Source: Jimgerdemannia flammicorona (taxonomy: Eukaryota). From it: DNA of 32,382 bases. Below the pieces are notes generated by a model. The model worked only from the letters and a program-made list of their open reading frames with translations, did no database searches and had not been told where the DNA came from. How positions within the stretch are numbered: position 1 is the first letter of the stretch; each line of letters opens with the position of its first letter. Shown here piece by piece: positions 1,617 to 32,382 of this stretch. The stretch covers positions 1 to 32,382 of the forward strand of contig RBNJ01000352.1 in NCBI GenBank assembly GCA_003990765.1. The letters are read 5' to 3'. A program made the position numbers and the translations under genes.

Positions 1617-4290
1617 TCACATCTCAAACTTTGTTTGGGATAGATATATTGTTTGTACAACTATATGTACATGATCGTCGATATTAGTTATATTTTGTGA
1701 TTTCAATCAATTCATCGCCTTGTCAATAACTGGTCAACAAAACCTACTTACCATAGACAGCTCCGCTAGCATGTACACAATAGCACAAAGTGTGATGGCA
1801 AAATCATTGTCACCCTTCTCATTGAACTTGTTCGATAATTTTTGAAAGAAATCACTATCTGCACCGTTTGGTATGAGAATGTCAACAAGTTCATCTGATT
1901 TTGTAAATACACTGTTGTGCATCTGGTGTTTGACTAGATTGTATAGCTTCTGAACATCAAGTTATGGGAAAGTCACATTTGGGGATGGAATAAATATTAG
2001 TCTGAACTCTGATAGAACCATTCGTTCATCTTGCATCAATCTGATATAATATGGAACTTCAATGAGTTCAGCATCTGGGTCAGACTTGAAACATATTACA
2101 GGAGTCAGAGTAATTGGGCTGTAATCAATAAATGGCATAATTGCATTGGTGTGGGTGCTGGAATTGTTGCTGTCCACTACAACAAAGTGGTTCGACTTTG
2201 TCGACAATGCACACAATATTGCCATTTGTCCAATTTCATGCTCTGCTGTTGCACTCCTCTTGTAAATGTCCTTGATGGCTAGTGCATAGAGTGTGTTGCT
2301 ATTGACAATGTCCCGTGTAGATACCTGTATAGTTGTTTGTATATCTGTATGCAACTTAATGAGATTTATATAGAACTCTGGGATATGGTGTGGTGGAAGA
2401 ATACAGAACACGGTTTGTTGTGATCATGATTGAACTGTTGGAATTTCAGATGGTGATTGTTGACCTATGTCACTACTGTTGCTACTGCTCCATTCAATGC
2501 TGGTAACTTATGGTTGCATAGTATTGGCGAATACAAGTAATACAGCAGCTATGACACAGCTCTGCTCTTTGATACACTGCAAGTATCCGCACCCAGTGCA
2601 TACAATAAAATCCAACATGTCATATTCATTATGAATTCTGATTCCCAACATGAACACACGAAGCTGTCATTGAGAGTTTATGGTCTTTATAGTATCTGTG
2701 ATAGCATTTTTCTCATCAAAGTGATTGATACTTATCAGAAGTATAACAGTGGTGGATGGTGAATTCTTATTCATAGTGTAGACATCAGTCAATGGACAAG
2801 AAATATCTGTTGTACCACCAGCTCCCATGTCTGCCCTGAGGCTGTTGACAGCCTGCAGTAGATGAATTATGCCATCATCATCACAATTGATATTGGTTTC
2901 AAATAATTTGAAATGTGTTGATATGCCGAACTTAACAATATTGATGGTACATGACTTGGGTAATATTTGCATGGAAAACGCAAGTGCTTCCTATATTTGG
3001 GCTAGTTTGCCATTGAGTATATATGTACAGCAGTCGACAATAAATATGATATCAGTTTGTCGCAGGTCCAATAATATATGGGATATGTTTGTGTACATTA
3101 TACAATGTGTGTTAGTATCAGGGTTGTATTCAGAGATCACAGATTGGTAGTGTTTTCTGTCAACATATATTGTGAAAATAAAATCCTAAAATGTGCATCA
3201 ACATTTAGAGAACTTTGTGACATTCATACACATATGCACATGCTTGATATATAGTTACCATTTGTAGACAACCAATATTGTCAACTAGAATTATAATTGC
3301 TCTTTTATAATCAGTAGTGTCATTAAACACCAACAATGTCTTGTGTGATGGTGATTTCACCTAAACAATTCTGTCTGTCATGGAACATTCAGAATGCACA
3401 GTCAATTTTCCAATCATTGTGCTGTTGGTGTGATTTGCCAAGTGGTGGCATGATATTGTCGTTTTCGGTAAACAAAATAGAACACAATCACTTATTGGTG
3501 ATTCATCCTCAAGCTCCTGTACATATTCAATGTGGACTGTTGTATCATAGTCATCAGAAAATAGTTTTCCAAGCTGTATTTCTATATGTTTGGGGAAGGG
3601 CAACTCAAGTTCTTGAGACAGCTGGACCGGGGATGGAAAGGGGTATACACTTGATATCTTTGCGACTAACTGCGCATATTGACCAATGTCAATAGTGAGA
3701 GTTGCTAGGACTGCCCAATCTGGTACTGCAAACACATATGATGGTGTAATGGTATCAAGAAAGTTGAAGTTGTACTTTTGAGTGATATGGATCCAAGCAA
3801 CTTTGTCAGTAATAGCAATTAGGACATCAATGGCACTATACAAGATTGGTTCAAGGTTGTATATGTTCTGCGGGAACCTGAGCATCCCATTAGATTTGAT
3901 GTGACTACATATCCCCAGACGACATGGGTGTGTGAATGACTCACCTACTGCACCTGAATTGCATTCTTGTAAGATAAAAACAAGCTCACTGTTAGGTTTG
4001 TCATAGATATGCAGACAATCTCTCCGATCATTTTGGGGATCGATTGCCACACAACACTCTGCATTGCATTGGATGATTATGTTGAGGATAGCAACCTTGA
4101 CAACCCCAGGCTCCAGAATGTAGCCATCTCTCAGCCGCACAACAAGTGTCTTGTCATGTTTCCCATACTTCTCTTCGAGGCAATTCAAAAATGGGGCAAC
4201 TTTGTCAGATTTGGCCACAATGCACTCAACAATAGAGCCATTCAACAATCAAATTACAAAGGTGTGACCACCTATGTTTTATTTATTGTA
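1617..4290 (-). pseudogene. VIT-VWA (VWA5A/BCSC-1-like) protein with N-terminal ubiquitin-like domain; one intron at 3186-3258
   Basis: VIT: VAWIHITQKY...SYVFAVPDWAVLATLTIDIG...QLGKL...HIEYVQELE...FCLP, then VKSPSH. A GTAACT...TTTTAG intron joins LQM|DFIFTIYV and explains the frame change. VWA: DIIFIVDCC...EALAFSMQILPKSCTINIVKFG...LRADMGAGGTTDI...VILLIS...RVFMLGI...TGCGY. C-terminus: TLYALA...FVVVD...VIDKAMN*LK. MIDAS motif is degenerate. Confidence 0.85.
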
Positions 4291-4571: not shown

Positions 4572-5234
4572 ATGGAGTTCACAACAATATACACAGGATA
4601 TCTAGAGACATATGTCAATACAGTGTATGTTGTCCGGGCATATAAGAACAGACACCTCCCATTTACATCCAGTGTGAGGCCAACAAGAAAAAGTGGTCTA
4701 ATGCCATCACTTGCAAATGGCACAACATATGTATGGAAACAAGCTACAATTGACTGATATTATGACTGATACAACTGGAGTCTGAATCATTGGGCTGGCT
4801 CCTTCTCCCTGTATCATGAAACACATCAAATATATTAGAGCGATAATTGAAGAGTTGAATCGAGGCTCATACTAGGAATAGAGAGAACAAGCTCTCATCA
4901 CCTAATATGCTCACTCTGCAATGAAACATACAAATTTAAAGTGGATGGTCTAATGTGTAAGATGATAACAGTAACTGTCAATAATGAGACATTTGTAATA
5001 TATAACTATTACGAACCAGAGGAAGCAGCTGTCTGTCTACTACTCTGACCAAACAAGGACATAGAACTATCACTATTTCACGTCACCACAATGTAAGGTG
5101 CATGTCAACTATGTCACAAACATCACAAAAAATGTGACAAGCAAGACATTTGTGGATGATATACAAAACACCATCAGACATATGTATACCAAGATACTGA
5201 TGATGTATATTCCTCCACCCTAATTACTGTTTAA
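4572..5234 (+). pseudogene. Gti1/Pac2 (WOPR) domain + C-terminal Zn(II)2Cys6 transcription factor
   Basis: One frame through stops. WOPR: TIYTGYLET...HLP...NGTTYVW...ID*YYD*YNWS...GSFSLYHE...YKFKVDGLMCKMITV...NYY...L*PNKDIEL. Then ACQLCHKHHKKCDKQDICG*YTKHHQTYVY at 5100-5189, a Gal4-type cluster with C>Y and R>H/stop transitions. Confidence 0.8.
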
Positions 5235-5381
5235 ATGTATTTCCTGCTTAAATCCCGAAAACTCACTCTCTCCTATGTCTCTAGGTAACAACTCCAGGGG
5301 TCACGAAGTGACAACCATGACATACCCACAGTCAATGACGTGTAAATTAATATATTTTATAATTCCAATATATAATACATT

Positions 5382-6400
5382 TTACACATCTATATATGCT
5401 GTGGGAATTGTATATGGGAATTGTGAAATGGATCGAACATTGGAAACTACAAATGTTAAATTTTGCCCTAGTAGATAAATATCCACTGTTTTGGTCAGAT
5501 ATGGGAGCGAGTATTGAATATCAAACTCAAATAAAATATTTGAGCTATTTATCGATAATAGATTCCAAACCGCTCCCATCCAACTCATACCATTATTATC
5601 AAATGTCCACACATATATACTGTTGTGATAATAGACGAATTTTACATCCAGAATTGTGGCACATGACAACCTGTGCAACTGGTTTACCACAAATATCTAC
5701 TTACAAGTAGAGTAGTTGTATATACACAATATACCAGAATCGTAAAATGTGATAAGGTGTATGTTGGTGTCAATGGTAATTTTGTCACCCTGCAACAATG
5801 TGTGTTTTAGGTACTATAGCTTATTTGGATCCTGCAGATTGTACAGCTTTGTATGCCCCAACATCTCGCATCAGGCAAAGTGGTGATTGCCTACAGTTAT
5901 CAGTGAAATTGCCTAGAATCCTGTATCCTGTTTATGTAACTGGCTGATATCAATCAGCTGCTTTATCTGATGAGTTGTATCTACTATATATAGCAATATC
6001 TGATCACAGACAATGATGTGATGGCCATCACCAAGCAAAACAAAATCACCAACAATAGTATTTTGGTCACTATCACAAAACAATCGTGGCTGATATGTTT
6101 CATCAGCAGGACAGAATGTGATAATTTTTTTACAGTAACCCAGTAGAACTACTGGGGATTCACCATCAGAAACAGTCAAATTGATGTCATCATATAGTGA
6201 TGACAGCTGGTTCATGTGTTCAAAATCTAATAATATTATGCTTGCAATATGCTTGGTTGTGCAGTAGAACAGTTTCCATACTGATAATATTCCATCACCT
6301 AGTAAAAGAGCTGCTGTGCACCACTTATCACACAACCTTCTACAGATTCTGATAGAGGTTCTGTGTGTTCTGTCAGACTAGTGCTGAACATATATGTACA
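5382..6400 (-). pseudogene. WD40-like/beta-propeller protein, paralog 1
   Basis: ORFs 5913..6335 and 5382..5690 share a frame. GDGILSVWKL resembles a WD repeat end. Aligns with the gene at 24.4-25.6 kb. Start is approximate. Confidence 0.55.
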
Positions 6401-7146
6401 TTGATAATTGGATACAGCAAATTGCGATCTGTTGGTCTACCAATAGTAACAACAGGATAAAGCCCGTCGAGCTATGGACTTGGCATGAGCAATTCTGTTT
6501 TATGCAAATATATATTAGATATATATATATATATATCTTCTTTCTCTCAATTTGTGATAATCACATTCCTTATAGATATTATCACCAGGTAGGTCGCTGT
6601 GTTTAAAATAAAATATCCGTGAATCGTTAATGTATATTGAGAATCCAAACACTACTGAAATGGTTTGTACAGTAACTACAGAATGTCTAATATGTTCTGA
6701 TGATGGTATGAACAAGAGGCCAGTACTGAGGTTATATACATATCTATACACAGTGTATACTTGATGCACTTGAAAACCACAGCCTTGTGACAAAGCCGAA
6801 CCAGACACCTCTATATGTTTGTATGAGTGTGTTAGACCAAATATACAACAGTGTAGTGGTTGTGGATATTTGTATCTTTACTTTTCAGAATGGCTTATAT
6901 TTAGTGTAATATCTATACATATATTACTGTCAATACTGTAGTTATATAACACATTCTGATCAGTGTCATATAATAGTTGAAGTATACCAATATAGACATA
7001 TACACATTTATGGTGTTAGTGTATATATATTTGGGAGTATTTATTGAATGCTGACACAGGATGTAATGTTTGGATATCTACCAAATGTTACAGGTATGTA
7101 TTTTAATATTATTTGGTTTATTCCATATGATGTCAGAAACACAACA

Positions 7147-7791: not shown

Positions 7792-9153
7792 ATGGTTCTG
7801 GCTGTAGTATTAGTGTGGTTTGTTAGTGTGGATGCAATAAGTATACCTGATATAATCTCACATATCATACTGGATGCGATGAGCACACCGAAGCCAGACC
7901 TCATAACTATTTTAGACTCCAAAGACACAACATGTGTGGCTGCAGTGCTGTGCAGCATAGGCACTGATTGCAACCAGATTGCAGATAATAATAACTTTGC
8001 TGCTGCTCTGAGCATAGCTCTCAAAAAATACGATATAGATTATATGAAAATATTGCTCCCAACTAAGTGTTAGGTCAGCCGGGCTGCAGGTATTTGTCTC
8101 GCAGTCTTGCTAGCCCATGTGCCAGCAATATACAACATATTCATTTCCAAACATGCCAATTTGCTTGTATATTGTATGAGTGCATCAATGGGAAATACAG
8201 TGATGCAGCTGATGGATGCATCTACAGCCTTTGCACACCAAACTGAGGAACTGTTTCAGCAGCAGGGCAAGCTTGTGGTATCTACAAAAAATGCAATCGA
8301 TGCTATTGGAATCAATATGGGAAGGGTGCAGGCACAGGTCCAACAAACTAACACCAACATAGTAAAGATCAGCAAGACTGCTGCACAGACCCTGGCAAGC
8401 ATCAATAAAATCAATACAAATATGAAGAAAACCCTCGACCTTAGTGAAAAACTGCCAACTCAAATTGAAGACATTAGCAACCTGATAATGCAGAGTGTTG
8501 TGGAGCAGAGGGCAGCACTAGTCAGTGTTAGTGATAGAATTAGTGGTGTAGAAACATAGCTGGGGGAATTCAAGATGAACATGGCAATAAAGTTCACAGA
8601 TTTCAACCTGAAGGTGGATGACTTGCAGGACAGGATTGTCAATGTCCTATCAGATATTATAGTTCAACTGGATTCAGTTGAGAAATAGGCACAAATACTG
8701 CTGGCCATTTTGGATGGTGCTGAAAAAGCTGCCACAACAATGCACATGATATACAATGGCATGATAGCTGTTGTTGATAGATATTTTGGGCTACTTTGTG
8801 GATTCTCAGATGTGACAGGGTTCATATTTATCATTGCAGTTCTGCTACCATGTGTCTGGTAGCAACATATTCCAGGTACAATCAATAAAATGGTGTGTGT
8901 TTTGGTGCTTATTTCATAGAAAGCTATTAGACAGGGTGATGTACAACTATTTGTACCATATGAGATTGCTGCAACTATGTCGGGATTGTGTGTCCTGAAT
9001 GTGCTATGGATGGTGCATAAATGATAACAATAACAACAGTATAATGTCAGGTTGATGGAGTGTCAAGAGAATGCATATGATGAATTTTGTGAATTGTATT
9101 ATGACGAATATGATGATACACTTGATATTGTAGTTAAATCAGATATATTTTAG
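7792..9153 (+). pseudogene. GEX1/KAR5/Brambleberry-like nuclear membrane fusion protein (~450 aa, intronless)
   Basis: One frame. Signal peptide MVLAVVLVWFVSVDA. Cys-rich domain TCVAAVLCSIGTDCNQI...LSIALKK(Y)...PTKC*VSRAAGICL...IYNIF...VYC. About 200 aa of heptad-rich coiled coil (8190-8760). Two to three hydrophobic segments (8790-9015). Then TGA TAA CAA TAA CAA (decayed poly-CGA Arg run) and an acidic tail. Confidence 0.65.
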
Positions 9154-9247
9154 CAGTAATAAATATTAAACTGGCTTTGTTGCAATTATCTATATTTTTT
9201 TGGACATTTTACAAATTTGATGATTGTGTTACATAAAGGTTGACTAT

Positions 9248-10818: not shown

Positions 10819-11199
10819 CTAGTTATACTTCAAAGATTATATGTATGTGGAGTGCAATTGTCTACAGAATAATTTGGACAATATATTCTCAAATAAACAT
10901 CCCATTTCCGTATATACTAGCTATGTCACTTAATTCAGTGTAACCATATGTATGGAGCATTGTAATCCAGATACTTAGTAGTTATAACAATTAATATAAA
11001 GATATATTTAATTCAAATGAGGTGAGCACTTGTAATGATAGGTCACTCCAATATAACGATGTCAGTGTAATATTCTATAGAAGCAGTTCTGATGAATATA
11101 TAGGATGAAATATGAGGTGACCACCCTTTTAAATAATAATGCCAAATTCGATAGTTATGATTTTAGGCAGTTGTATCCTTTTCCATACACATACAAGCC

Positions 11200-13857
11200 A
11201 TGCATCAGCACAACCCTAGACACTTTTCATATGACTCCTCTGATAGACATCCTATCATGTTTATGAATGAAAAGGGTAACAAGCTCCAAGTTCAGGTTAT
11301 CAATGATAGCATCATACATGTTTTATACAATGTACCTCACCAACTATGGCTACTAAGCTATACCCTCATCGATGACAGAGCACTCCTGATATTCACATTG
11401 GAGATTGACGATGAGAACAAGAAGCTTGTCATTAAAACTAGAATCCTGTGTATTGTTGTCAACTTCAAAAAGGACCTATATATCGCCTGGTATGCCCAGA
11501 GCCACCCTGATACCCCCCGGCAGGAAGATCTACTGAACCACATATATCCCTCGGATCTGGCCACAGGTGCTGTTTGGCACTATATGAAATAGCTTGAAGG
11601 TGACATATACTATGGTCTTGGGGAGCACACCAGCGAATTGAACCTCAAAGGCCATCAGTTCAGACTGGAGCATCTGGATTGTATGAGTTATGATATAGAG
11701 ATCTTGGACCCCCTGTACAAGTTTTGTCCATTCTATCTGATGCTGTCAAAGGGCACAAGCTTGGCCCATGGCATTTTTTATAATAATATGTCAAGGATGA
11801 CAGTGGATTTAAGCAATGAGAACAATGCTGTGAGTATATGCGTCACTGACTCTAGTTTTGTAATATGTGGTAGTTTTCTTGCTCACTCATTTTATGATTG
11901 TTGCTTCAAGCTGTGGGGGCCCTATCACTACTACTATGCCGAGGTAGGGCCTCTTGATTACTACATCTTTTTCAGCCCTTCTGTCCAAGACGTTATTGAA
12001 GGCTTTACCTCATTAATGGGTATGCTGGATCACCTCCCTCCCCGCTACTCATTTGGCTACCTTGCCTCCTCCATGGGTTATGCTGAAGCCTCTAATGCAC
12101 AAATACTTCTTGAGGGGGTCCCCGATCTCTGCCGCCAGCATAATATTCTCTGTGATAGACTCCACCTTTCATCCAGCTACACTGTCGACAAAGACACCAA
12201 GCAGCGCTACGTCTTCATCTGGAATGAGAAATACTTCTCAAACCCCAAAGACCTGATAGTCAAGCTTAAAAATACTGGTATCCACATCTTTGCCAACATC
12301 AAGCCCTGGCTGCTCGAGATCCATCCATACTACCAGAGTCTGAAGGATGTACATGGCCTCATCTGGAATGAAGAGGATGACATCCCCGGCAAAGTAATGC
12401 AGTGGAGCGGCAGTGCTGGCGAGTCTGCCAGCTATGCCTACATTGATTTCACAAGTGAGAATGGGTTCAACTGGTGGAAAGAAAATGTCAAGACAAAGCT
12501 CCTCATGTATGGCCTGGAGGGGTTGTGGAATGATAACAATGAGTTCACCATGCCTGATGATATATATTCATTTTCCAATGAAGTTAAGTCTACCATGAAC
12601 CTATACTGCCCGTTGCCCTCATACAGGACTAATTCAGCTGTAGTCGGCATGCCATTGCAGACCCTGCTGATGGCACAGGCATTGTACAAGACCATGTATG
12701 AATATGTACCGAGCCAGTGACCCTTTGTGATCACAAGATCTGCGACTCTATTTATTCACAAATATGTCATGCAGACATAGAGTGAAGATAATTTCATGGC
12801 ATAGAAGTTGGTCAAGTTCAATATTCTAATAGGCATATCTGCTGGGTTGTCCATATTCTCTGGTATGTATGGCCACAACGTGGGTGGTTTTGTGGGGCCT
12901 AAGCTGGAGCCAGAACTGTTCATACATTGGGTGCAGAACAGAATCTTCAATCCTAGGTTTAGCATTCATTTGTGGAATTCAGATCATACTATCATAGAGC
13001 CATGGATGGTAAGATCATTGCACTGAGCTATTAAATGATATACTTAGCATTAGAAGCTCTTGTCAAACATTCTCACCATTTATAATTATTCACAATGATA
13101 TACATAGTATCTCTCCATCCTTCCGACCATCTGTTCCTCCATCTATTTCCACTACCACCTCATCCCTCACATATATTCTCTTTATATCGAGTTCCACCAC
13201 ATGGGTCACCCAATCCTTCACCCACTCTTTTACCATTTCCAAAATGACCTGGTGACATACAACCAATCCTTTGACTTCATGCTTGGTTCCACTATACTCA
13301 TTGCCTCTATTTATGAGCCCGCCGCCACCACATGCAAGGTTTATCTGCCCACAGACTCTAACTGGTACCACTTTCAGACTGGCTGCCATCATATAGGCAG
13401 ACAGGAGGTGGAGCTCCCAGCCCCACTCGAGGATGCACACTCTCTGTTCCTGATGCTCAAAGGTGTACTCCTCCTGCTTGGCAAGGTGATGCAGCATATA
13501 GGAGAGCAAAGAGATGATAAGCAGGTTGTACAAATGTACCCACTGCTACTCATAGCCAAATATGTCAAAAAGTGATTTGAAGTGACAATGGTAGAAAATG
13601 ATGGGATATCCATGAACTATATGGAAAAAGGTGAGTATACAGAGCTAATAGTGTGGATTGTATGTGATTTCGATGAGATCAAGGTGGGTGTATATATCGT
13701 TCATGCACAGTATAAGCCCAAGTATGACATCATATGGTTTGTGGTTGCAGTGGAGGGTGAGACCAGGAAGGTGGTCAGAGGTAAAGACAGTTTGACTAAA
13801 GTGGATACTGTGGGGAGGACGATGGTGGGTGTTCCTGTGATATTTGCACCTTACTAA
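11200..13857 (+). pseudogene. Glycoside hydrolase family 31 (alpha-glucosidase-like, WNDNNE type)
   Basis: YYGLGEH, DPLYKFCPFY, PPRYSFGYLAS, ANIKPW, YIDFTS...WW, nucleophile WNDNNEF, PFVITRS, QT*SEDN, GHNVGGF.GP, EPWM|Y. In-frame introns at 11830-11910 (GTGAGT...GCTCAC...AAG) and 13009-13107 (GTAAGA...TAG). At least five in-frame stops. The 5' end is uncertain. Confidence 0.93.
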
Positions 13858-14337
13858 GGTTCATACAAACATTCACTTAATATGTACCACAATTTACTAA
13901 ACATTATATTGACATGTTTTGGTTGTTATAACCTGACAGAAACAATCTCATCCCCCCCCCCCAAAAAAAAAAAACCAAATGTGCAATACTGGTATTAAGA
14001 ATTATATAATATATATGTGATAGGTGGTAATATGTATTATATGACTTAGTGTATAGTTATCCATGCTTATATTAAAATAAACTACCTATCTGTGATTTAA
14101 TATACAGTTTTGTCAACCATGTACTATAATATCAAGTTGTAATCTTCTATCATACACATAAATGTATTAAACTGAAATCCAATTCTGAAGAATTATAGAT
14201 GTTTCGTTTTGTTGTACATATTCATGATGCATTTCAGACTGATTGTAAATGGGAAACACAATGACGCAATTATGTGACATAGTTTACATGATAAATTAAT
14301 ACCAAATTGTAATATTTATACTATTACATTGTAAAGC

Positions 14338-15348: not shown

Positions 15349-15698
15349 TGACTATAATTATCTGCAATCAGCTTATGTTAAAATAAACAAATTTGTCCAA
15401 ACACCATTATGTCAACTAACTTATTACTATGTATGTCACATGTTTCATGTGATTCTTTCATTGTGATCACAATGCAGTAGTAGCATCTTGTTTGGAGTAT
15501 ATTTCATTGAACATAATGTATCATGTCACTATTATAAATAATATAAGTCTAGTTGTGCCAACAGTCATCCAAAACATCCAGCAATGTCGCAACTAGACCT
15601 CAATATGTTATACGTATCTCAACATCTTATCCATACTATGTTTGAACAAATTCTTCATACAAATTATTGCTATTCTAAACCTAAATCTATATATATAG

Positions 15699-17075
15699 AT
15701 GACATTGGAAGAAATCTTTACTGCGATCAGACAATACAACCTACTACATATAAATGGTACTATGCAGGGTGCTATTCTCACCGCATGTTCTATAGCTCAT
15801 CATAATAGTATACCAGATCTTTTTGATGTCCAAGTACACCAAAGTGGATATATCCTCTTATCTATTGCCAAACATATTCTCTCTGACAATATTGTAGCAT
15901 TCTCATTGACAATAGATGACAGCTATAGATTATATATGATAAGTCCTAAGTATATAGCCAGTAATATTACATACATTTCATCTAATACAAACTCCTTGAT
16001 CAGCATTGTAACTTCTTTGACCTCATCTGTTGATTCAATAACTTACATGACAGCATCACATTTTGCAATCACCCAGCAAACTGGCTATACATACCCACAC
16101 CTCCATTCTGCGGGTCATACAAAGATTCTTCGAAATCAATATAAAGATGTATTTTGTGTTACTGATCTAAAAAGACCAATAGCAATGACTACATTCAGAC
16201 AGCTATTCATGTTGGTGGATGGACATGGTAGTCGCAAGTGTGTGTAGTTCTTTGTCAATATGATCTCTAGTGCAATTGCAGATCTGTGTAGTGGATACAA
16301 TTTGGAGGAGTTGGGTGATGCTACCATACAGCAATCGATAGCACATGAGATCAAGGAGCTAGTTAGGAGGCTTGATGACGAGTATTTGCATGGATTGCAC
16401 AATAGCAATAGGTGTACACTTATGCTGGCTATATTTCTGAGTAACACGTGGCTCATGCAGGCCAACGTGGGTGACTCATGCACCATCCTCATATCTATAT
16501 TAGATGGTGTCTACAATCTTGATATTGACTTCGCCTTACAAGATCATAAACCATACCTCGGATGTATTGCCCAAAATATACTAGCGAATGGTGGTGAATT
16601 CATGGATGTTATATAGGATTGGGTCATCAATGTCAATTCTAAACATCTCTAGAGTGGTACCAATACAATAGCCATACTCAGGAATGCATATATCAGAGTA
16701 TTGAAGAATGAGATGTCAATAAATGTGGGGAGATTATGTGGCGATGCTGTGTTCAAGCAAAATCCGACTGCAAGGATCATATTGTGTGAACCAGATATCA
16801 TGTTTATTGACATTAGTAGATAACAGCAGCAACAGTAATGACAGTAGTTCCTGCTCATGAGTAGTGATGGTCTGATGGATCACCTAGGATATGGACTTGT
16901 TGTTGACATACAGAATAAATGTATCACAATGGCTGTCAGAGATCTTGTTGAGGCTAGTGAGGAGTGTGGTTGTATTGTTAAATATCTTTATAATCACGAG
17001 GGTGATCCCAACTTCTTCTTGTCTATAGTTCAAGCATATGATAATTGCACTGTTATATTAGTTGAGATAGTATAG
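15699..17075 (+). pseudogene. PP2C (PPM) protein phosphatase with N-terminal extension
   Basis: One frame: LVDGHGS, ANVGDS, QDHKP, NGG, GRLCGD, CEPDI, SSDGLMD, YDNCTVILV. No introns seen. Confidence 0.9.
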
Positions 17076-17085
17076 CATATTTACT

Positions 17086-17110
17086 GTGATGTCCCTGATG
17101 ATGATGTCAC
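17086..17110 (+). repeat. Short intergenic motif, copy 2 (GTGATGTCCCTGATGATGATGTCAC)
   Basis: Matches 9248-9272 with transition-only differences. Lies between the PP2C stop and the next ATG (17160). Confidence 0.7.
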
Positions 17111-17159
17111 AAGATAAGATATAACGAATGCATTTTCATTGAATAAATCTTCCAAAACA

Positions 17160-17868
17160 ATGACTAACCAATGTGGATGCTACTATTTTGAAAGTGGCTA
17201 TGAACTATATCTAATCTCCAAACCGGTCTCTCCAGGTGTCATTCGTATCTGTGCTAGAGCCAAAGGTGAGAGTTGTGTATTATACTGTTGTCTAGCTCTT
17301 TATTTATTTCAATACTCCAGGTGTAAAACCCTACAGCTATCTTGAGGTGAATACTGCAGTATAACTTCTGAATAAATGACTTGGACATGGCTGGTCCTGC
17401 AAATACAAAGTAGATAATAGGATTGAGGTATTTGTTATGGATGTCAATCTGTAAATTCATGTGGCCACAAAATACTAATCCAAATATAGACATTCTACGA
17501 ATCCATGAGATTGTGGGAGATTTATGTCAAAGTGACTGCCAAGTTCAAATACATCATACCAAGTAACCAAACAATAAAACGCGAAGTATGTATTTAGCTT
17601 ACAAGAGCTTCAACTACAACCACTGCTCCATCTAACACAATCCCAGAAATGTGGTGGATTTATACAATCCTTGCAGGCAAGAGGCACAGTGAGAAAAAAT
17701 GCTAGAAAATTGGCTAACTCTGATGTGCTAAAACGAATTGCTGCCACATTCGGCATTACCATTGTGGGTGAATCTGTCGATAATGGTAACTGTGTTGTTG
17801 GTGATACATTATATATAGCGGAGTTCCCATGCTTACACCTTATTAATTTAAAACATAATAGATGCTGA
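17160..17868 (+). pseudogene. Unknown decayed gene with probable intron 17266-17320
   Basis: A GTGAGA...CTCCAG intron joins the frame of the 17139 ORF to the frame of the 17671 ORF. Confidence 0.35.
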
Positions 17869-18214: not shown

Positions 18215-19880
18215 ATGAATACACTTGCAGAGCAATTAGTTATGTCATATACGGCTCTTAAACACAATACAACAAACCCTATGTTTAGCTCAGACATTCT
18301 CACTAATCTCATCACTAGTAAGAATGATATATGGATGCTATTGTCAAATGTTTTTTAGATGATAGAGGAAATGTATCAAATTCACACTTTTACTGCTGAT
18401 GGTAACATGACTTTTGGATACAGTGGGGACAAACATTCGATAACTGTCATCATAAATAGAATGGATATATATCAGATAACAACTAATGTTATATCACCAG
18501 CTACTAAAGCAATTTACAAATCTATAATATAGGAGCCATATGTATATGATCCCCCATTCTCAAGAACCTCTGATAGATATGATGATGACCTATTATATAT
18601 GACAATGGCTGAAGTCATGCCACAACCTGATGATGACATGGATATCGATTTGGTTGAGGTTCTTTCAGCTAGTGAATTATCGCTACATGGGGTTCTTCTA
18701 GCCAGTGAATTATCACTATATGGGGTTCTTCCAGCCGATGGATCACTACTACATGGGGTTCATCCAGCCAGTGAATTATTGCTACATGGGGTTCATCCAG
18801 CCAGTGAATTATCGCTATACAGGGTTCATCCAGCTAGTGAATTATTACTATATGGGGTTCGTCCAGCCAGTGAATTATTGCTACATAGGGTTTGTCCAGC
18901 TAGTGAATTATTACTACACAGGATTCGTCCAGCCAGTGAATTATTGCTACATGGGGTTCATCCAGCCAGTGAATTATTGCTACATGGGGTTTGTCCAGCC
19001 AGTGAATTATCACTATACAGAATTCTTCCAGCCGATAGATCACCACTACATGAGGTTCTCCCAGCCAATAGATCACCGCTACATGAGGTTCTCCCAGTCG
19101 ATGGATCACTGCTATATGAGGTTCTCCCAGCCAATGGATCACCGCTACATGAGATTCTTCCAGCCAATGGATCACTGCTACATGAGGTTTCACAAATCAG
19201 AGCAATATTCAGACAAGAGCTCAGAGTCTGGAGAGAAACTGCAACTCATGCTACCAAAAGAGTAGATGACCCAACTAGAAAATACCATAGACAATGATAT
19301 GTTAAAGATAGCCAGAGACAAATCAGTCACAATTTGAATGAGATATCTTCAGAATCTGAGACAGAAAGTGAGACAACAGCAGAGGAGGAGGATGAATGTT
19401 TGCAGATGCCACAACTTTTATATGCTATATATAAACATGCCAGGTTTATATATCTAGACCAATCATTAGCCACCAGAATGCGGTCAGAGAAGTTTATCAA
19501 ATTGCTCATAGTGCAATCTGCAAGGTCTATTTTAGACAATGTGGCGAATTGGTATAATCAGTTAGTGGTCAAATATATTTCAGGTAGTATAGGGTTATGC
19601 CTTTGTAGTATGAGCATCTGTGTCAAATATTTACTAGATCTGACTGATCTGAATAATTATCAATTGGTGTCATGGAGGGTAGTGTCCAATCAGCTCAATG
19701 CAAAGTACAGCCAATATAATGCCAGTGAGCTTGGTAAGTGGATTAGGTGTGGGTGGCAGTATCTCATCTTGGCTAAGCTCTTCAATAGTGTATTTGTTGT
19801 GGCATCATTGTAGAGAGCCACTAGTATATCAAGAATGATGAATTCAGAATTTAGAGAACTGGTGACATACCTATGATTGA
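18215..19880 (+). pseudogene. Unknown protein with internal 11-aa tandem repeat and acidic patch
   Basis: ATG 18215 and ORFs 18599 and 19334 are all in one frame, separated by TAG/TGA stops. Confidence 0.6.
18656..19183 (+). repeat. Coding minisatellite, 16 x 33 bp
   Basis: Unit approx. GGGGTTCATCCAGCCAGTGAATTATTGCTACAT; 528 bp = 16 units. Two subtypes (PASELxL, PAxGSPL). Confidence 0.97.
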
Positions 19881-20586
19881 AGGACTGTATTGTAGGTATT
19901 TTTTTTTATAGTCATTTGGACTTTGCCATTTATTACCAGTCTAATGTTAAATATACATTCTTCCTCCCACTACCTGATTCCCATAGGCAATCCAAGCAAA
20001 GACCACCTTCCCCCCCAACTGTGTTGTAGGTATAATATATGATGCATATAGTGGGGATGATGTGTGGTCGATAGTAAAGAATTGTGTGAGTGGGGAGGAT
20101 ATTGATGCAACTAGTAGTGTTGTCACACAAGTGTTGGAAGAAAACACACTTGAATGCCTACTAGTGATATATAATAATAATAAATAATAAAGTTTTAAAT
20201 ATCTCTGTGGAAAACTGTGAATGTTTTACAACAATTATCTCCAAATCTATACATTACTTATATTGGACCACAATCGATACAAAAAGTAACAGAGCTGTCA
20301 AGTCATATAAGTATTTATAAAAACTATCCTCAAAAATCTATTGGCAATATATCCATAGACTAGAGTTATAAAATATATCATATTATAAAATGATCTTTTC
20401 TGCAACAAGATCCTTTTTTATGGACACAGCATGCTACACATTTTGCACTCCTGTAATCAGCTTTGAAAGAAACTGAAAGTTTCACTGAATTGTCAAACAC
20501 TCAACTCCAAATAATTTTACTGGAACACACCCAAGAATATGAAGTAGTGTTAAGAACTGCAGTTGTGGGGCAGACTCGCCCACACA

Positions 20587-22893: not shown

Positions 22894-22948
22894 GGGAAAG
22901 TGCATTCACATGGATGGGATTATCCTGTCTATGTGAATGCACTTTCCC
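22894..22948. repeat. Long palindrome, copy A
   Basis: GGGAAAGTGCATTCACAT GGATGGGAT T ATCCTGTCT ATGTGAATGCACTTTCCC. Confidence 0.97.
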
Positions 22949-23041
22949 CAATAATGGCATCATCATTAATTTGAAACATGGTCACAACTTGTAAAGAAAT
23001 ATAAACCATGGTAAACTGTCTTAAAAAGTTACAAGATGGCA

Positions 23042-23491: not shown

Positions 23492-23592
23492 GCAATGTAG
23501 TCCAGCAATTATATATACTATGTAATAAATGATGTTTATATGTCACAGCCTCATCATATCCCAACCACGCACACCATGATACACTTTGCACA

Positions 23593-24171
23593 ATGATGTC
23601 AATTACAACCCAATTCAAAGATGATCTGGTAGCAATAATCAATGACATAGTGCTGCACGATGTATCTATTGTCTGTGCCAATGGGTAGGTCATTAGTGTG
23701 TATAGTGCAGTGCTTGCTGCCTATTGTCTGCTGTTCCAAACCATGTTTTATGGCAATGTGCATTCCAAGTAGGTCTTGCTGGACAATGTGTCTGTTGACA
23801 TGTTACACTATGTCCTATACTTCTTGCATGCTGAGCGACTGCCAAAGATCATGGATACTGATGTTACCAAACTCTACTGTATTGCAGTCCATCTGGATCT
23901 GCACAAGCTACAAACACAGCTTGTGGTGCAACTGATTGCCGAATTGAATGGTGAGAGTAGTAGTGCACATACAAGTGAGCTTTTCGACAGGGTGATTGCA
24001 TTATGAATTGATCCAATACATGCATGCAAATTCTATGATGCACTCACTCAGGCTCTACCAGTGCAAAAAATTACAACTGTCCAGTTACAAGTATTGGGGA
24101 GGCTAATCAATGATATAGGTGTGATCAGAGGACAACGAGATGTGGCAACCCAGACAAATGAAGATGGTTGA
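23593..24171 (+). pseudogene. BTB/POZ domain protein
   Basis: DLVAIINDIVLHDVSIVCANG*VISVYSAVLAAYCLLFQTMFYG...V.LDNVSVDMLHYVLYFLH...LYCIAVHLDLHKL. Confidence 0.8.
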
Positions 24172-24389
24172 TACATATATATATTTGTATAGATCTTGTG
24201 CACTGTCTGGCTGTATGTGTGATTTAACTATCCTACTATATGCATTGCAAAACTTGTAAATCACATTTAATACACAAACTCGAGACACTGTTATGTGTCA
24301 TAACATCTCTCTTATAATGGCAACTGGAATTCGCAAATTTCGAAAATAGTAAAGGTGATATATTTTATAAAAATACAATATTTATTTGC

Positions 24390-25640
24390 TATCAAAGACT
24401 ACCTCGGTTGATATTGGTTAGTGCCATCGATCCCTATACATTGTTTATGGTCGGCCACTGAATTGACTCATATCTACACAATGTACAATTATACTATACA
24501 ACAACACCATCATCTGCATAAATAAAGGCAATGCTAGCAGTATTACTAAACACAAATAGGAATTCATCACCATGCTTGATATTATCTGCTAATATTTCAT
24601 CCATTTTGTACTTGTAGACAACACTTAAAGTGTCATTCCTGTCCATATCTCAGATTCATATAGTGATATGGATAGTGTTACTCACTTGTTCTAGGGTGTG
24701 TATATCAATTGTCAGGATGTATGTTTTGTTATTTCTGGTAATAAAGAGTACTTTCATTGGTGTAGTATTGGTCCCTGTCTATCAGTGAACACTGGATGCA
24801 AATCAGTAGTTAACAGTACTACTAATTTACTGCTGTCATGGAGTACAATATGGGTTTTGTCCAGGTTCATGGCAATCTTATGGAACATGGCCATTGATAG
24901 TCTAAACATCTTACTCTTGTTGTGGTTGTCAGCTATGATCATCCTTGCCTGGTCATCAGCACCATACCAAATAAATGCACCCTTTCCGACTTGTACAAGT
25001 GGCAGTCTGTCATGTCTGGTTGTATCAGAACATCCAATTCCAAAATGGGCAATGATGTCATTGTTATGGATGGATGATTTGATAACCCCAAGTGTGTTAA
25101 GATCTACAATATAGAATATTGTCCAACTGATAACAATCACCCATATACTATCACCCAGCATAGCAATGTCACCTGTAATCGGCTCATCACTATCATCAAG
25201 AAGAATCAATGGCTTGGTTACCAAGCTATCAATATTTGGTTTCAAAATGAATATATATCGATTCTGTAGTAGCAAAGAGTTGTGATATCTACCCAGCAAA
25301 ATTACTGAGTTTGGTGTGTCTGATATTGCCATGCTGATTGTATCATATATATTCATATCAGAGTCGAATATAGTAGTAACTGGCAATACAAATTCTTTGC
25401 AAGTAATAGAAGTCTTTAGTATGGGTGATTTTGTTGATATATCTTATATAGACACACAGCCATCTCTACTGCTGAAACAGACAGCTGTCATACAATTGTG
25501 TGTTGTGGTAAAATATCCAATTTATGTCTGGTGTGGGCTGGTTGTATCCTTAACAGGAGGTCCAAAATTATATGGTCTGGTGAATTGCATCTGTGTAGCA
25601 TTGCTGGGGACATTGAGGACTGTAATTTTTGCATTACCAT
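24390..25640 (-). pseudogene. WD40-like/beta-propeller protein, paralog 2
   Basis: TAVCFSSRDGCVSI*DIS; IYDTISMAISDTPNSVILLG and ITGDIAMLGDSIWVIVISWTIFYIVD align to paralog 1. Ends are approximate. Confidence 0.55.
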
Positions 25641-25677
25641 GGTTTCTAGCAAAGTATATAACTAGATAAATAAGACA

Positions 25678-26252
25678 TCAAGACTTGTTGATTTTAACAA
25701 TTTCACAGATCTCACCATTGATATTGCTCTGTAGAAATGTAGAGCTGCTTGAATCTTGACAACTCATGCCAAATCCAATGGTGAGGTTGATTGGAAACTT
25801 GTTGTAAGTAGTGCCATCAAAGTCTAAATGATCTGTTTTAAAGTCAAATTGATGAATCCATCCATGAACTGACCAACTGAAAAACAGGAATATTATTATC
25901 AAATATATTAAAATTCATACTCTAATGGGTTATATCTAGTAATTACCAATTTCTGGTATAGGACATTTGGCTGTAAACCACCATTTGGTAACCACTCTTA
26001 AAATCACACCTCTGTAGAGAAGATAAGATGTTATTACATTATTCAAAGCTAATGTACTACATATATCATCCACCAAACATACTGGATTAATTGTTCTTCT
26101 GTTAGCATAATTTTAAAGTAAAATGCTGTCAGAGGCTCTGGAAGATTTGGTTTTGTGTGTGGGGGTTTCGGTTTTTGAATTTGTTGCATGACACTATCTG
26201 TAATCATATACACTTCACTGATATCAAAGAGGGTTGTTGAAGTGTGTTCCAT
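25678..26252 (-). pseudogene. Unknown decayed gene, possibly spliced
   Basis: Adjacent minus-strand ORFs 26049..26252 and 25678..25902 with a possible GT...TTTCAG intron between them. Confidence 0.25.
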
Positions 26253-26558: not shown

Positions 26559-26623
26559 CATTGGGGAAAGTGCATTCACATGGACAGAATAATCTCGTCC
26601 ATGTGAATGCACTTTCCCCAATG
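26559..26623. repeat. Long palindrome, copy B
   Basis: CATTGGGGAAAGTGCATTCACAT GGACAGAAT A ATCTCGTCC ATGTGAATGCACTTTCCCCAATG. Confidence 0.97.
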
Positions 26624-30100: not shown

Positions 30101-30260
30101 GTTGTAGGAGTTGTGGATTTGACAGTGAATTTGACAGCTACTGTAGGGGTGGCATAATTGAGTTGGAATACATAAACACTCTTCAGATAATATATATATA
30201 TATCAGGATTATATTACATGATACTGGTATTAGATTAATCATATATTTGTGACCATGGTT

Positions 30261-30316: not shown

Positions 30317-30424
30317 TGATGCTCACATCATTATATTTAGTCTCATTATTGTTAAAATGGTTTGCCACATCCTAACGTATATATCTCGAGATGATTAAAC
30401 AATACAAATCATAACTCTATTCAA

Positions 30425-32130
30425 ATGGTGAATAATAAGTGACCACAACAATTTGATGATAGTGAAAACAGACGTATACGACACAACTCCAACCAACTGC
30501 CACAACAAACATCGGAACCACTGCTGCTATCATACCACCTGCATTGGATGTGCCTACAGGCTCCGATCATAAACTGTGAGAGCAATGAACTCATGTTTCA
30601 GCTGATGGATGTTCATATAAAGTTTCGCAATAGCGAGGAGATTGTGATTATAATTGGAACAACTATTGAAAAGTATAGTGTTATATGTTGGGTGCATGGA
30701 TTTAGACTATAGTTTTACATCTACATGCCCAACACTGTCCAACAGGACAATCTACCATTGTTGGTAGTGTGGCTGCAACAGTATGCAAAAGTGTCTGTAT
30801 ACAACTGTAGTATTGTTGATAGCAGAGACATATACAACTACACAGAGTCAGACTTGGAACTATTCATTAGGTTCACCACTACAACAGACGCTGCTAGACA
30901 ATGACTGGTGAATTTTATATAGAATCGAACAGTCTTCAGTCTGCCCAGTTGCACTATTGTGCATGATGACAAATCGTATAAAAGTGATGTGAGTCTGGAT
31001 CTGCGATTCATGGTCAACCACATGATAACTGGGGTCAGATGGGTGCGAATCTCCACTGGAAATTACATGTTGTATATCTTGCGGACATCACACTGTTAGT
31101 ATGAGGTCGAAACGGACATCAATGCAATCCAGAGTGTGCCCTATAACTCCTGTGACGTGGGTTTGTGCATCGTACCCTTGCAGGTACTGAGCTTCGATAT
31201 CGAGTATCACAGTTGCAAGAGCATTTTTCCGGAGCCCAAACATGACCCCATCATACAGATTGGCTGTACTGTGGCTGTGTTGGATGTGGCAGACCCACCC
31301 AAATACATTGTGTTTGTGCTGGGGGAGTGCACCATGCCACTCGATAATTGCAAAGTGTGGGCACACACCTCCGAGAAGGCACTCCTGCTTGACTGGTGCT
31401 GGTTTGTGGTGTATGAGGTCAATCCAGACATGCTGACAGACTACATGATTGCCAAGTTTGACATTCCATATCTGATTAACTGCGTACATGCATTGGGTAT
31501 TGAGTGTACATTCATACAGTTGGGCCAGATTGTTGACAGGGAAACCACAATCAATCAGAAAGTTACAAAGACCAAGGCATATGGTATCAACAACACAAAC
31601 AAAATTGACATCGCAGGCTGTCCACTGTATAATATCTATGACGTGGTCCATCTCGATTACAAGCTCCCTGGTAGAAACAAACTCAATAATGTCTGCAAAC
31701 ATTACCTTAATGGTGAAATAAAGGTAGACCTATACTACAGTATGATCATGCTACTGCACGATGACAGTAACAATGACTGACACAAACTAGCCGAGTACTG
31801 CATACAGGACATGATACTACTATTACTGCTGATGGTGCAATTTGCGAGTATGACTAAGTATATTGAGCTGGCATACATTACAGGCATGCCATTTGCATAT
31901 TTGTTACTACATAGCCAGCAGATCCAGACCATGTCACAATTCTATCGAAAGACACATGAACTGAACTATCTCATTCTTGTATCTGACCCTGTCAAGGGCA
32001 TTATCGCCAATGGGCCACAGTACCAGGGTGCGAAGGTACTCAACGTGACCCCTGGCTACTACTAAGTACCAATCTGCATGCTTGACTACAGCTTGCTATA
32101 CCTGACCATCATGATCAACAATAATCTATA
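30425..32130 (+). pseudogene. polB: Family B DNA polymerase, Pol delta-like, intronless, interrupted after motif A
   Basis: One frame: LMFQLMDV, SVICWVHGFRL*FYI, LRFMVNHMITGVRW, ExoI LSFDIE...FPEPKHDPIIQIG, ExoII DYMIAKFDIPYL, ExoIII LAEYCIQD, ELAYITG...SQQIQTMSQ, YQGAKVL...GYY*VPICMLDYSLLYLTIMINNNL (motif A, from DxxSLYPSIM). Confidence 0.95.
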
Positions 32131-32382
32131 CTCGCAGACCCCGACATGCAAGTCTCTCCACTACAATTCACGTTACACACACTTTTCAACACACTTTCGA
32201 AGCATTTATTGGCGAGAGATACTAAGGCAATATCAACTAGCAAGCAAGCCGACACGCGTACTGGGTCGGGTGGACCTGGGGCCTTCGACTGGCAGACTGT
32301 CGGGAGAGGGTATGGATTGGGGATGGGATCTTTCGGTGGCTCGAGTGGGCAGGGCGGCTCAGGTGGTGGAGGTAGCACTGGT
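32131..32382 (+). mobile_element. Probable younger insertion or rearrangement junction inside polB
   Basis: Polymerase similarity stops after NNL. The sequence becomes GC-rich with many intact CpGs. A Gly-rich frame STSKQADTRTGSGGPGAFDWQTVGRGYGLGMGSFGGSSGQGGSGGGG runs off the window end. Confidence 0.55.

What the first reader, a model, noticed from the sequence alone, without database searches (positions are those of the whole stretch)
7792..9153. Element-borne GEX1/KAR5-like nuclear-envelope fusion gene
Seen: signal peptide, Cys-rich domain with GEX1-like spacing (C..A...L...C..I...L..[C>Y]...P.C...C...Y..F...C), long coiled coil, 2-3 TM segments and a decayed poly-Arg stop-transfer, all without introns. 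Known: this is the architecture of KAR5/Tht1, GEX1 and Brambleberry, which are required for nuclear membrane fusion. Inference: a virus or element carrying a karyogamy factor could enter or leave nuclei, or spread between nuclei of coenocytic hyphae by promoting nuclear fusion. I know of no described viral homolog. An unrelated viral envelope glycoprotein is the alternative.
Basis: partly seen in the sequence, partly recalled or inferred. Interest (0 to 1): 0.9.

Follow-up and report, generated by a model that had tools for sequence, protein, structure and literature searches.

The report
Dead coiled-coil membrane gene, KAR5 kinship unproven
This is the broken remains of a gene for a membrane-anchored coiled-coil protein, lying among other dead intron-less genes that look like an old virus insertion; its layout resembles the nuclear-fusion protein KAR5/GEX1, but no sequence test shows that it belongs to that family.

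Summary
Window 7792-9153 (+) is a real gene relic. It has 453 codons in one frame, 8 internal stops and no frameshift, against about 32 stops expected by chance.

The described layout is mostly there:
- a signal-peptide-like start;
- six Cys at residues 48-128;
- a significant heptad coiled coil at about 137-330;
- one strong membrane segment (338-356) and two weak ones.

The "poly-Arg stop-transfer" is not supported.

Every homology test was blank: Pfam Tht1 (PF04163), phmmer against 1.84 billion proteins, the PDB, the ESM Atlas, and IMG/VR and metagenome scans. The AlphaFold model was too poor to search with (pLDDT 42).

One point favours KAR5. Five Cys plus Tyr80 reproduce the spacing of yeast Kar5p's six conserved Cys within ±3 residues (73 of 20000 shuffles). 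That test was chosen after seeing the data, and the strict six-Cys pattern is not met.

The surroundings are a dense island of dead, intron-less genes with strong CpG depletion: a Pol-delta-like polB, GH31, PP2C, VWA and BTB. This fits a decayed endogenous large-DNA-virus insertion, probably in an early-diverging fungus, but no viral hallmark gene lies in the window.

Verdict: an orphan membrane-protein pseudogene. KAR5/GEX1 kinship is possible (about 0.25) but unproven.

The parts
7792..9153 (+). Relic ORF: 453 codons, 8 internal stops, no frameshift (read-through with X = P0001)
7792..7839 (+). Signal-peptide-like hydrophobic N-terminus (residues 1-16, ...SVDA|IS)
   Evidence: Kyte-Doolittle 2.24; sequence. 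No signal-peptide predictor was available.
7933..8175 (+). Cys-containing N-terminal domain (residues 48-128: C48, C54, C60, C93, C102, C128; Tyr80 sits where Kar5p spacing predicts a Cys)
8074..8151 (+). Internal TM-like or fusion-peptide-like hydrophobic segment (residues 95-120), directly upstream of the coiled coil
   Evidence: Kyte-Doolittle peak 2.03
8200..8781 (+). Long heptad-repeat coiled coil (residues 137-254 and 258-330)
   Evidence: 0/500 and 9/500 shuffles; AlphaFold2 helix 137-254
8803..8859 (+). Strong transmembrane segment (residues 338-356)
   Evidence: Kyte-Doolittle 2.32
8869..9015 (+). Two weak hydrophobic segments (residues 360-375 and 392-408): possible decayed 2nd and 3rd TM
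   Evidence: 1.32 and 1.45 with a 19-residue window; 1.87 and 1.73 with 15
9022..9027 (+). Tandem TGA-TAA (codons 411-412): either decay or the original stop of a 410-codon gene
9034..9150 (+). Acidic C-terminal tail (residues 415-453), if the gene ran to 9153
9195..9201 (+). T7 run 42 nt after the last stop; one of only 4 such + strand runs in the window
30395..32200 (+). Context: decayed, intron-less Pol-delta-like family B DNA polymerase (7 in-frame stops)
11167..14046 (+). Context: decayed, intron-less GH31 alpha-glucosidase; closest relatives are Mucoromycota (53% identity)
15453..17342 (+). Context: decayed PP2C phosphatase
1710..3197 (-). Context: decayed VWA-domain gene
23533..24189 (+). 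Context: decayed BTB/POZ gene
   Evidence: E 2.8e-9

Best explanation
This is a pseudogene: the relic of an orphan membrane protein about 410-453 aa long. The protein was made with a cleavable signal peptide. Its first ~320 residues faced the lumen or the outside: a small disulfide-type Cys domain, a hydrophobic segment and a long heptad-repeat stalk. One strong C-terminal membrane segment, perhaps three in all, held it in the membrane.

Shown: the gene lies in a dense island of intron-less genes on both strands. All of them have been inactivated by point substitutions in a strongly CpG-depleted stretch of DNA.

Inferred: the island is a decayed endogenous large-DNA-virus insertion, or an element like one, in a host that methylates CpG. 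The host is probably an early-diverging fungus.

Inferred mechanism when the gene was alive: a coiled-coil membrane protein that brings two bilayers together, as a tether or fusion protein of the ER, nuclear envelope or virion membrane. A hydrophobic segment followed by long heptad repeats and a membrane anchor is the generic layout of such proteins.

Descent from the KAR5/GEX1 family is not demonstrated. The gene has no function now.
For: A real coding relic: 9 stops against 31.9 +/- 5.2 expected, with 0 of 2000 shuffles as low, and a coding-like codon-position composition. The domain layout is shown.

An orphan:
- 0 hits among 6400 word-sharing candidates;
- 0 of 1.84 billion representatives at E<=1e-3;
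- no PDB relative;
- only coiled-coil noise in Pfam;
- no relative in IMG/VR or JGI metagenome contigs;
- no paralogue in the window.

Decay is island-wide. There are 101 in-frame stops (41 TAG, 36 TGA, 24 TAA) in 6875 codons across 16 relic segments. CpG observed/expected is 0.20-0.32 and (CpA+TpG)/(ApC+GpT) is 1.47, the signature of 5mC deamination rather than RIP.

The neighbours are intron-less relics of polB, GH31, PP2C, VWA and BTB, plus a weak YqaJ-like nuclease hit, and a pair of paralogues (E 2e-7).

The polB is only 31-38% identical to any known protein yet has just 7 stops in 602 codons and no frameshift. Most of its divergence therefore arose while it was functional, so it is not a recent host retrocopy.

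GH31's nearest relatives are Mucoromycota at 45-53% identity. The window's GC is about 37%. The published 1.5-Mb giant endogenous viral region of Rhizophagus irregularis has 36.6% GC and many pseudogenes (PMC10640383, passages).
Against: No viral hallmark gene (capsid, packaging ATPase, VLTF3, D5, RNA polymerase) was found. I scanned 33 of the 63 ORFs of >=90 aa and 17 read-through or ORF pieces.

In a FastTree the polB falls on the cellular Pol-delta side, not with the 36 giant-virus-like polymerases. It sits on a very long branch, so its placement is unsafe. IMG/VR polymerases are only 24-32% identical.

All recognised neighbours are cellular-type genes.

The ectodomain has no N-glycosylation sequon (2.6 expected; 5.8% of shuffles also have none). 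That is unusual for a viral envelope glycoprotein.

The Kar5p-like Cys spacing argues that the protein may not be an orphan after all.
Confidence: 0.5

Rival explanations
1. The relic descends from a true KAR5/Tht1/GEX1/Brambleberry-family gene carried by the element. When alive it sat in the ER or nuclear envelope with its Cys-rich domain and coiled-coil hairpin in the lumen, and helped fuse nuclear membranes. Tyr80 would be a decayed sixth Cys (TGC to TAC, a G-to-A transition).
For: The architecture matches the family definition: signal peptide, N-terminal Cys-rich domain with six Cys, one or two coiled coils, and two or three C-terminal TM segments (PMC4291462 passages; PMC7586128 and PMC9324357 passages).

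C48-C60-Y80-C93-C102-C128 gives spacings of 12/20/13/9/26, against Kar5p's 12/23/14/11/25. Such a chain (+/-3, one Tyr allowed) occurred in 73 of 20000 shuffles of residues 20-136. The first Cys is 32 residues after the putative cleavage site, against 33 in Kar5p. The protein is 410-453 aa, against 504.

Kar5 proteins are too divergent for BLASTP even among fungi (PMC5720818 passages), so blank searches are weak evidence.

Earlier unchecked notes of this scan report intact GEX1/Kar5 genes on mirusvirus-like contigs.
Against: Pfam Tht1 (a 595-position model built largely on fungal sequences) gave no hit at E<=10, either with the whole protein or with the Cys region alone. In the same window the decayed polB, GH31, PP2C, VWA and BTB are all still recognised.

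phmmer found no KAR5/GEX1/Bmb protein among 1.84 billion at E<=1e-3.

The six-Cys rule ('conserved in every ortholog') is not met as the sequence stands. No chain of six real Cys fits at a tolerance of up to 4.

The same loose pattern occurs 50 times in the window's six-frame translation and in 7 of 230 unrelated proteins.

There is an extra Cys54, and a TM-like hydrophobic segment inside the 'Cys-rich domain'; the Kar5p description lists only three hydrophobic domains.
Confidence: 0.25
2. The island is not viral. It would be a silenced, methylated stretch of host or horizontally acquired eukaryotic DNA holding dead copies of cellular genes, and the ORF would be a decayed cellular membrane protein of an unrecognised family.
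For: Every recognised neighbour (Pol-delta-like polB, GH31, PP2C, VWA, BTB) is a cellular-type gene. No viral hallmark gene was found. The polB sits on the cellular Pol-delta side of the tree. GH31 is fungal in type.
Against: At least six genes are continuous in one frame over 0.7-2.9 kb without introns. They are packed on both strands at about one per 2 kb. That is unlike retrocopies and unlike the intron-rich genes of Mucoromycota (the intron richness is from my own knowledge).

The polB and the other genes are far from any known cellular orthologue. Most ORFs are orphans.
Confidence: 0.15
3. The open frame is a chance feature or the mirror of a gene on the other strand.
For: The antisense frame over the same stretch also has few stops (8; longest ORF 132 aa).
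Against: 0 of 2000 shuffles reach so few stops. The + frame has purine-rich first codon positions, a signal peptide, significant heptads and a TM segment. The antisense translation is Cys/Tyr-rich and of low complexity. Low stop counts in the mirrored frame of a real gene are common (from my own knowledge).
Confidence: 0.03

Closest known systems
Kar5p / Tht1 / GEX1 / Brambleberry (Pfam Tht1, PF04163), nuclear-envelope fusion proteins
   Same: The order of parts is the same: signal peptide, N-terminal domain with six Cys, long coiled coil(s), C-terminal membrane segments. The overall size is similar. Five Cys plus Tyr80 fall within +/-3 residues of the Kar5p Cys spacing.
   Different: There is no profile or sequence similarity. 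One of the six Cys positions is Tyr, and there is an extra Cys54. A TM-like hydrophobic segment lies inside the Cys region. Only one convincing TM segment is present. The gene is dead, and it sits in a virus-like island rather than at a host locus.
Class I-type viral fusion glycoproteins (generic layout, recalled from my own knowledge)
   Same: Signal peptide, N-terminal surface domain with disulfides, an internal hydrophobic segment directly followed by a long heptad repeat, a second helical region next to the membrane anchor, and a short tail.
   Different: There is no polybasic cleavage site before the hydrophobic segment (residues 88-97 read LLPTKCXVSR). There is no N-glycosylation sequon. 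No family in Pfam or the PDB matches. Trimer formation was not tested.
Giant endogenous viral elements of fungi, e.g. the 1.5-Mb region of Rhizophagus irregularis (PMC10640383)
   Same: GC is about 37% against the published 36.6%. Genes are intron-less, many are pseudogenes, and fungal-type genes are mixed in.
   Different: That region is Asfarviridae-like and carries hallmark genes. In this window no hallmark gene was seen, and the polB groups with cellular Pol delta rather than with giant-virus polymerases. I did not establish which genome the window comes from.

Membership tests
KAR5/Tht1/GEX1/Brambleberry (PF04163) | Sequence or profile similarity to the Tht1 model or to family members | tested here: not met
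   No Tht1 hit at E<=10 for the whole read-through or for four sub-pieces including the Cys region alone. phmmer against 1.84 billion proteins: 0 hits at E<=1e-3. The power of these tests is low for a divergent, decayed copy.
KAR5/Tht1/GEX1/Brambleberry (PF04163) | Cys-rich domain with six cysteines conserved in every orthologue (Kar5p C56, C68, C91, C105, C116, C141) | tested here: inconclusive
   Six Cys lie at 48-128, but only five fit the Kar5p spacing; the third position is Tyr80. The chain with one Tyr allowed occurs in 73/20000 shuffles. A strict six-Cys chain is absent at a tolerance of up to 4. The loose pattern is common in unrelated sequence.
KAR5/Tht1/GEX1/Brambleberry (PF04163) | N-terminal signal peptide | tested here: met
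   Hydrophobic residues 1-16 with V and A at -3/-1. This was judged by hydropathy and by eye; no dedicated predictor was available.
KAR5/Tht1/GEX1/Brambleberry (PF04163) | One or more coiled coils between the Cys-rich domain and the membrane anchor (predicted as an antiparallel hairpin in GEX1) | tested here: met
   Heptad periodicity over 137-254 exceeded 500/500 shuffles; over 258-330 it was reached by 9/500. AlphaFold2 predicts a helix over 137-254. Hairpin geometry could not be tested (pLDDT 42).
KAR5/Tht1/GEX1/Brambleberry (PF04163) | [quoted passage not shown] | tested here: inconclusive
   One strong segment (338-356, Kyte-Doolittle 2.32) and two weak ones (1.32 and 1.45 with a 19-residue window).
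KAR5/Tht1/GEX1/Brambleberry (PF04163) | Nuclear-envelope location and a requirement for nuclear fusion | not testable with these tools
   The gene is a pseudogene, and no genome or RNA data were available.
Class I-type viral fusion glycoprotein | Hydrophobic fusion segment directly followed by a long heptad repeat, then a membrane anchor | tested here: met
   Hydrophobic segment 95-120, heptads 155-245 in one register, TM 338-356.
Class I-type viral fusion glycoprotein | Proteolytic (polybasic) cleavage site before the fusion segment; N-glycosylated ectodomain | tested here: not met
   Residues 88-97 have no R-X-K/R-R motif. There are 0 sequons in 314 ectodomain residues, against 2.6 expected.
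Giant endogenous viral element (Nucleocytoviricota-type) | Viral hallmark genes (major capsid protein, A32 ATPase, VLTF3, D5, RNA polymerase) and a viral-type polB | tested here: not met
   No hallmark gene was found in 33 of the 63 ORFs of >=90 aa or in 17 further pieces. The polB lies on the cellular Pol-delta side of the tree. Only 32 kb could be examined.
Giant endogenous viral element (Nucleocytoviricota-type) | Dense, intron-less genes on both strands with many orphans and paralogues, eroded by pseudogenisation | tested here: met

The most novel reading that the evidence does not exclude
A large DNA virus that once infected an early-diverging, coenocytic fungus carried its own KAR5/GEX1-type nuclear-envelope fusion gene, and this relic (with Cys80 decayed to Tyr) is its fossil. 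Together with the scan's earlier, unchecked notes of intact GEX1-like genes on mirusvirus-like contigs, this would mean that nuclear-membrane fusogens were acquired repeatedly by nucleus-dependent giant viruses.
Probability: 0.2. Interest if true: 0.7.

Novelty: new member of a known kind. Interest (0 to 1): 0.35.

Why it matters
If the KAR5/GEX1 kinship were shown, this would be fossil evidence that a virus of fungi carried a karyogamy factor. My literature searches found no paper that links GEX1, KAR5 or Tht1 with giant viruses or mirusviruses. It would also suggest how such viruses deal with the nuclear envelope.

As the evidence stands, this is one more orphan pseudogene in a decayed virus-like island. 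It is useful mainly as a marker of that island, and as a caution that architecture alone (signal peptide, Cys domain, coiled coil, TM) does not identify a family.

Tried and rejected
Searches and models that gave nothing:
- Whole-genome search: no genome is held for this window.
- Sequencing runs: none was listed, and no RNA holder was listed.
- Word-index homology search with P0001: 0 of 6400 candidates.
- Exhaustive phmmer: 0 hits.
- PDB phmmer: only noise at E 0.29-0.57.
The two open pieces gave no usable hit (best score 0.81, which a third of shuffled proteins reach).
- AlphaFold2 without an alignment: mean pLDDT 42, so I ran no fold search, because its matches would be meaningless.
- IMG/VR and JGI metagenome scans with P0001: 5 and 77 pattern matches, none confirmed.
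- tblastn of 7 relic proteins against 80 IMG/VR polB loci (867 kb): no hits.
- Pfam Tht1 searched in 37 IMG/VR records, to obtain a viral GEX1 for comparison: 0 of 37. The control genomes are prokaryotes, so nothing could ring.
- Ning et al. 2013 (PMC3672651), which defines the Cys-rich domain, is not held. I therefore never saw its consensus. Supplementary alignments (figures) of PMC7586128 and PMC5720818 were not readable either.
- Rfam: no hit in the window.
- Bulk six-frame Pfam scans failed for size.

Ideas rejected:
- Alternative genetic code. All three stop codons occur in frame across the relic genes (41 TAG, 36 TGA, 24 TAA). In polB a TGA sits just before the conserved RRLA motif, where I recall an Arg in Pol delta.
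- RIP. TpA/ApT is 0.76 and (CpA+TpG)/(ApC+GpT) is 1.47, the opposite of the RIP signature.

Full report
**What is there**

From the ATG at 7792 one frame runs 453 codons to the TAG at 9151-9153. It is interrupted by eight stops: TAG at codons 94, 256, 299, 357 and 376; TGA at 411; TAA at 412 and 414. There is no frameshift. Counting the terminal stop, the frame holds 9 stops. Shuffles of the same 1362 bases give 31.9 +/- 5.2, and none of 2000 shuffles had 9 or fewer. None reached the 161-aa longest open piece either. First codon positions are purine-rich, as in real genes. The antisense frame is also fairly open (8 stops), but its translation is Cys/Tyr-rich and of low complexity. I read the + strand frame as a genuine, recently inactivated gene.

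**Anatomy (read-through with X at the stops = P0001)**

- Residues 1-16 are a hydrophobic, signal-peptide-like start ending in VDA.
- Six Cys lie at 48, 54, 60, 93, 102 and 128. The next 207 residues contain none.
- Residues 137-254 show heptad periodicity beyond all 500 shuffles, in a single register over about 155-245. Residues 258-330 are weaker (reached by 9 of 500 shuffles).
- AlphaFold2 without an alignment gave a poor model (mean pLDDT 42). It does draw 137-254 as one helix at pLDDT 55-80.
- Residues 338-356 are a strong membrane segment (2.32). Residues 360-375 and 392-408 are only weakly hydrophobic.
- After residue 410 come TGA-TAA-CAA-TAA. Only the TGA could derive from an Arg codon by one transition, so the "poly-Arg stop-transfer" is not supported. 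The tandem TGA-TAA could equally be the original end of a 410-codon gene.
- A T7 run lies 42 nt after the last stop.
- There is no N-glycosylation sequon (2.6 expected; 5.8% of shuffles also have none).

**Tests of the KAR5/GEX1 reading**

The family is defined by a signal peptide, an N-terminal Cys-rich domain whose six Cys are conserved in every orthologue, one or two coiled coils, and two or three C-terminal TM segments. The Cys-rich domain is the only part conserved in sequence (PMC4291462, passages; PMC7586128 and PMC9324357, passages).

Every sequence-based test was blank:
- Pfam at E<=10 gave no Tht1 (PF04163) hit for the whole protein or for four sub-pieces, including the Cys region alone.
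- The word-index search scored none of 6400 candidates.
- Exhaustive phmmer against 1.84 billion representatives found nothing at E<=1e-3.
- The PDB gave only noise.
- The ESM Atlas gave no usable hit for the two open pieces.
- IMG/VR and JGI metagenome scans found no relative.

I could not obtain any bona fide KAR5/GEX1 sequence or profile through the tools. Tht1 was absent from the 37 IMG/VR records I could search, and Ning et al. 2013 is not held. So no profile-profile comparison was possible.

In the same window the decayed polB, GH31, PP2C, VWA and BTB genes are still recognised by Pfam. Decay alone therefore does not erase family signal. But Kar5 proteins are reported to be too divergent for BLASTP even among fungi (PMC5720818, passages). 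The blanks weigh against kinship only moderately.

**One result in favour of KAR5**

The G3 paper gives Kar5p's conserved Cys as C56, C68, C91, C105, C116 and C141, with spacings of 12, 23, 14, 11 and 25. In the relic, C48, C60, Y80, C93, C102 and C128 give 12, 20, 13, 9 and 26. The first Cys lies 32 residues after the putative cleavage site, against 33 in Kar5p.

A chain within +/-3 residues, with one Tyr allowed in place of a Cys, occurred in 73 of 20000 shuffles of residues 20-136.

Several things count against this:
- No chain of six real Cys fits at a tolerance of up to 4.
- Cys54 is extra.
- I know the spacing of only one family member.

I put the probability of true kinship at about 0.25.

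**Surroundings**

GC is 30-45%. CpG observed/expected is 0.20-0.32 across the window, with an excess of TpG+CpA (ratio 1.47) and TpA/ApT of 0.76. This is the mark of 5-methyl-cytosine deamination, not RIP.

Low-stop frames reveal a dense set of intron-less relic genes on both strands:
- a VWA-domain gene (1710-3197, -; E 1.7e-5);
- two distant paralogues (5223-6569 and 24694-25929, -; BLASTP E 2e-7);
- a GH31 alpha-glucosidase, continuous in one frame over 2.9 kb (11167-14046);
- a PP2C phosphatase (15453-17342; E 8.5e-6);
- a protein with sixteen 33-bp repeats (18658-19189);
- a 700-codon gene with a weak YqaJ-nuclease match (E 0.023);
- a BTB gene (E 2.8e-9);
- weak RING and kinase signals;
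- a family B DNA polymerase cut off near 32200.

Sixteen relic segments hold 101 in-frame stops in 6875 codons: 41 TAG, 36 TGA and 24 TAA. All three stop codons occur, so a variant genetic code does not explain the stops.

**The polymerase and GH31**

The polymerase is closest to cellular Pol delta. It scores 2e-64 against yeast Pol3 in the PDB. It is 31-38% identical to the best database proteins and 24-32% identical to IMG/VR polymerases.

In a FastTree of 59 sequences it sits on a very long branch beside the cellular Pol-delta clade, apart from 36 giant-virus-like polymerases. The tool itself warns that this placement is unsafe. With only 7 stops in 602 codons and no frameshift, most of its divergence must have arisen while the gene was functional. 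It is not a recent host retrocopy.

GH31's nearest relatives are Mucoromycota (Bifiguratus 53%, Umbelopsis 50%), then liverworts and chytrids.

The published giant endogenous viral region of Rhizophagus irregularis has 36.6% GC and many pseudogenes (PMC10640383, passages), which resembles this window. I did not establish the window's source. No viral hallmark gene lies in these 32 kb.

**Conclusion on the surroundings**

The island is best read as a decayed endogenous large-DNA-virus insertion, or an element like one, in a CpG-methylating host that is probably an early-diverging fungus. My confidence in that is about 0.6.

**Conclusion on the gene**

That it descends from KAR5/GEX1 is neither shown nor excluded.

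The layout fits equally well a generic viral membrane-apposition or fusion protein: a hydrophobic segment followed by heptad repeats and an anchor. In either reading the likely former role is bringing membranes together. Today the gene does nothing.

Earlier, unchecked notes of this scan (e1-5467373, of which part later fell, and e1-5467362) report intact GEX1/Kar5 genes on mirusvirus-like contigs. This raises the prior for virus-borne copies and lowers the novelty of the idea. I found no paper linking GEX1 with mirusviruses, and none of the 15 listed papers from the search joining Tht1, KAR5 and nuclear fusion protein with giant-virus terms made that link.

Noticed in passing
window 22894-22952, 26559-26623, 30259-30314: There are three copies of a ~60-bp near-perfect palindrome (GGGGAAAGTGCATTCACATGGA...TCCATGTGAATGCACTTTCCCC), 85-94% alike and about 3.6 kb apart, lying between relic genes. 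As single strands they fold into long hairpins (z = -8.6, -13.7 and -6.5). They could be a MITE-like element or virus-type dispersed hairpin repeats.
   Followed up: partly
window 18658-19189: A 33-bp tandem repeat, 16 copies at 82% match, lies inside a 613-codon relic gene. It encodes an 11-residue unit of the type ASELLLHGVHP.
   Followed up: partly
window 11167-14046: An intron-less, decayed GH31 alpha-glucosidase of about 960 codons with 13 in-frame stops. Its closest relatives are Mucoromycota (45-53% identity) and liverworts (about 50%). It is a hint to the host or donor lineage.
   Followed up: partly
window 30395-32200, and 32001-32382: The Pol-delta-like polB relic stops matching polymerases at about residue 450 of the read-through. 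The last ~380 bases of the window have a different make-up (CpG observed/expected 0.66 against 0.2-0.3 elsewhere). This may be an insertion or the edge of the island.
   Followed up: no
window 7792-9021 and 15453-16820: All five internal stops of the finding's ORF before its TGA-TAA are TAG. So are all five in the PP2C read-through. Island-wide the split is 41 TAG, 36 TGA and 24 TAA, so this is probably chance plus a CAG/TGG-rich codon usage rather than a recoded TAG.
   Followed up: partly
window 9195-9201 and 19899-19907: Two of the only four T>=7 runs on the + strand lie 42 and 86 nt after the last stops of + strand relic genes. I recall runs of seven or more T as terminators in asfarviruses; this was not tested.
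   Followed up: no
window 5223-6569 (-) and 24694-25929 (-): Two distant paralogues of an orphan gene (23% identity over 198 residues, E 2e-7). Neither has a Pfam family.
   Followed up: partly
proteins P0010 and P0018: A Pleurotus eryngii 'hypothetical protein' and a Salix suchowensis 'DNA polymerase delta' are identical over the region used for the tree. This suggests contamination in one of the public assemblies.
   Followed up: no
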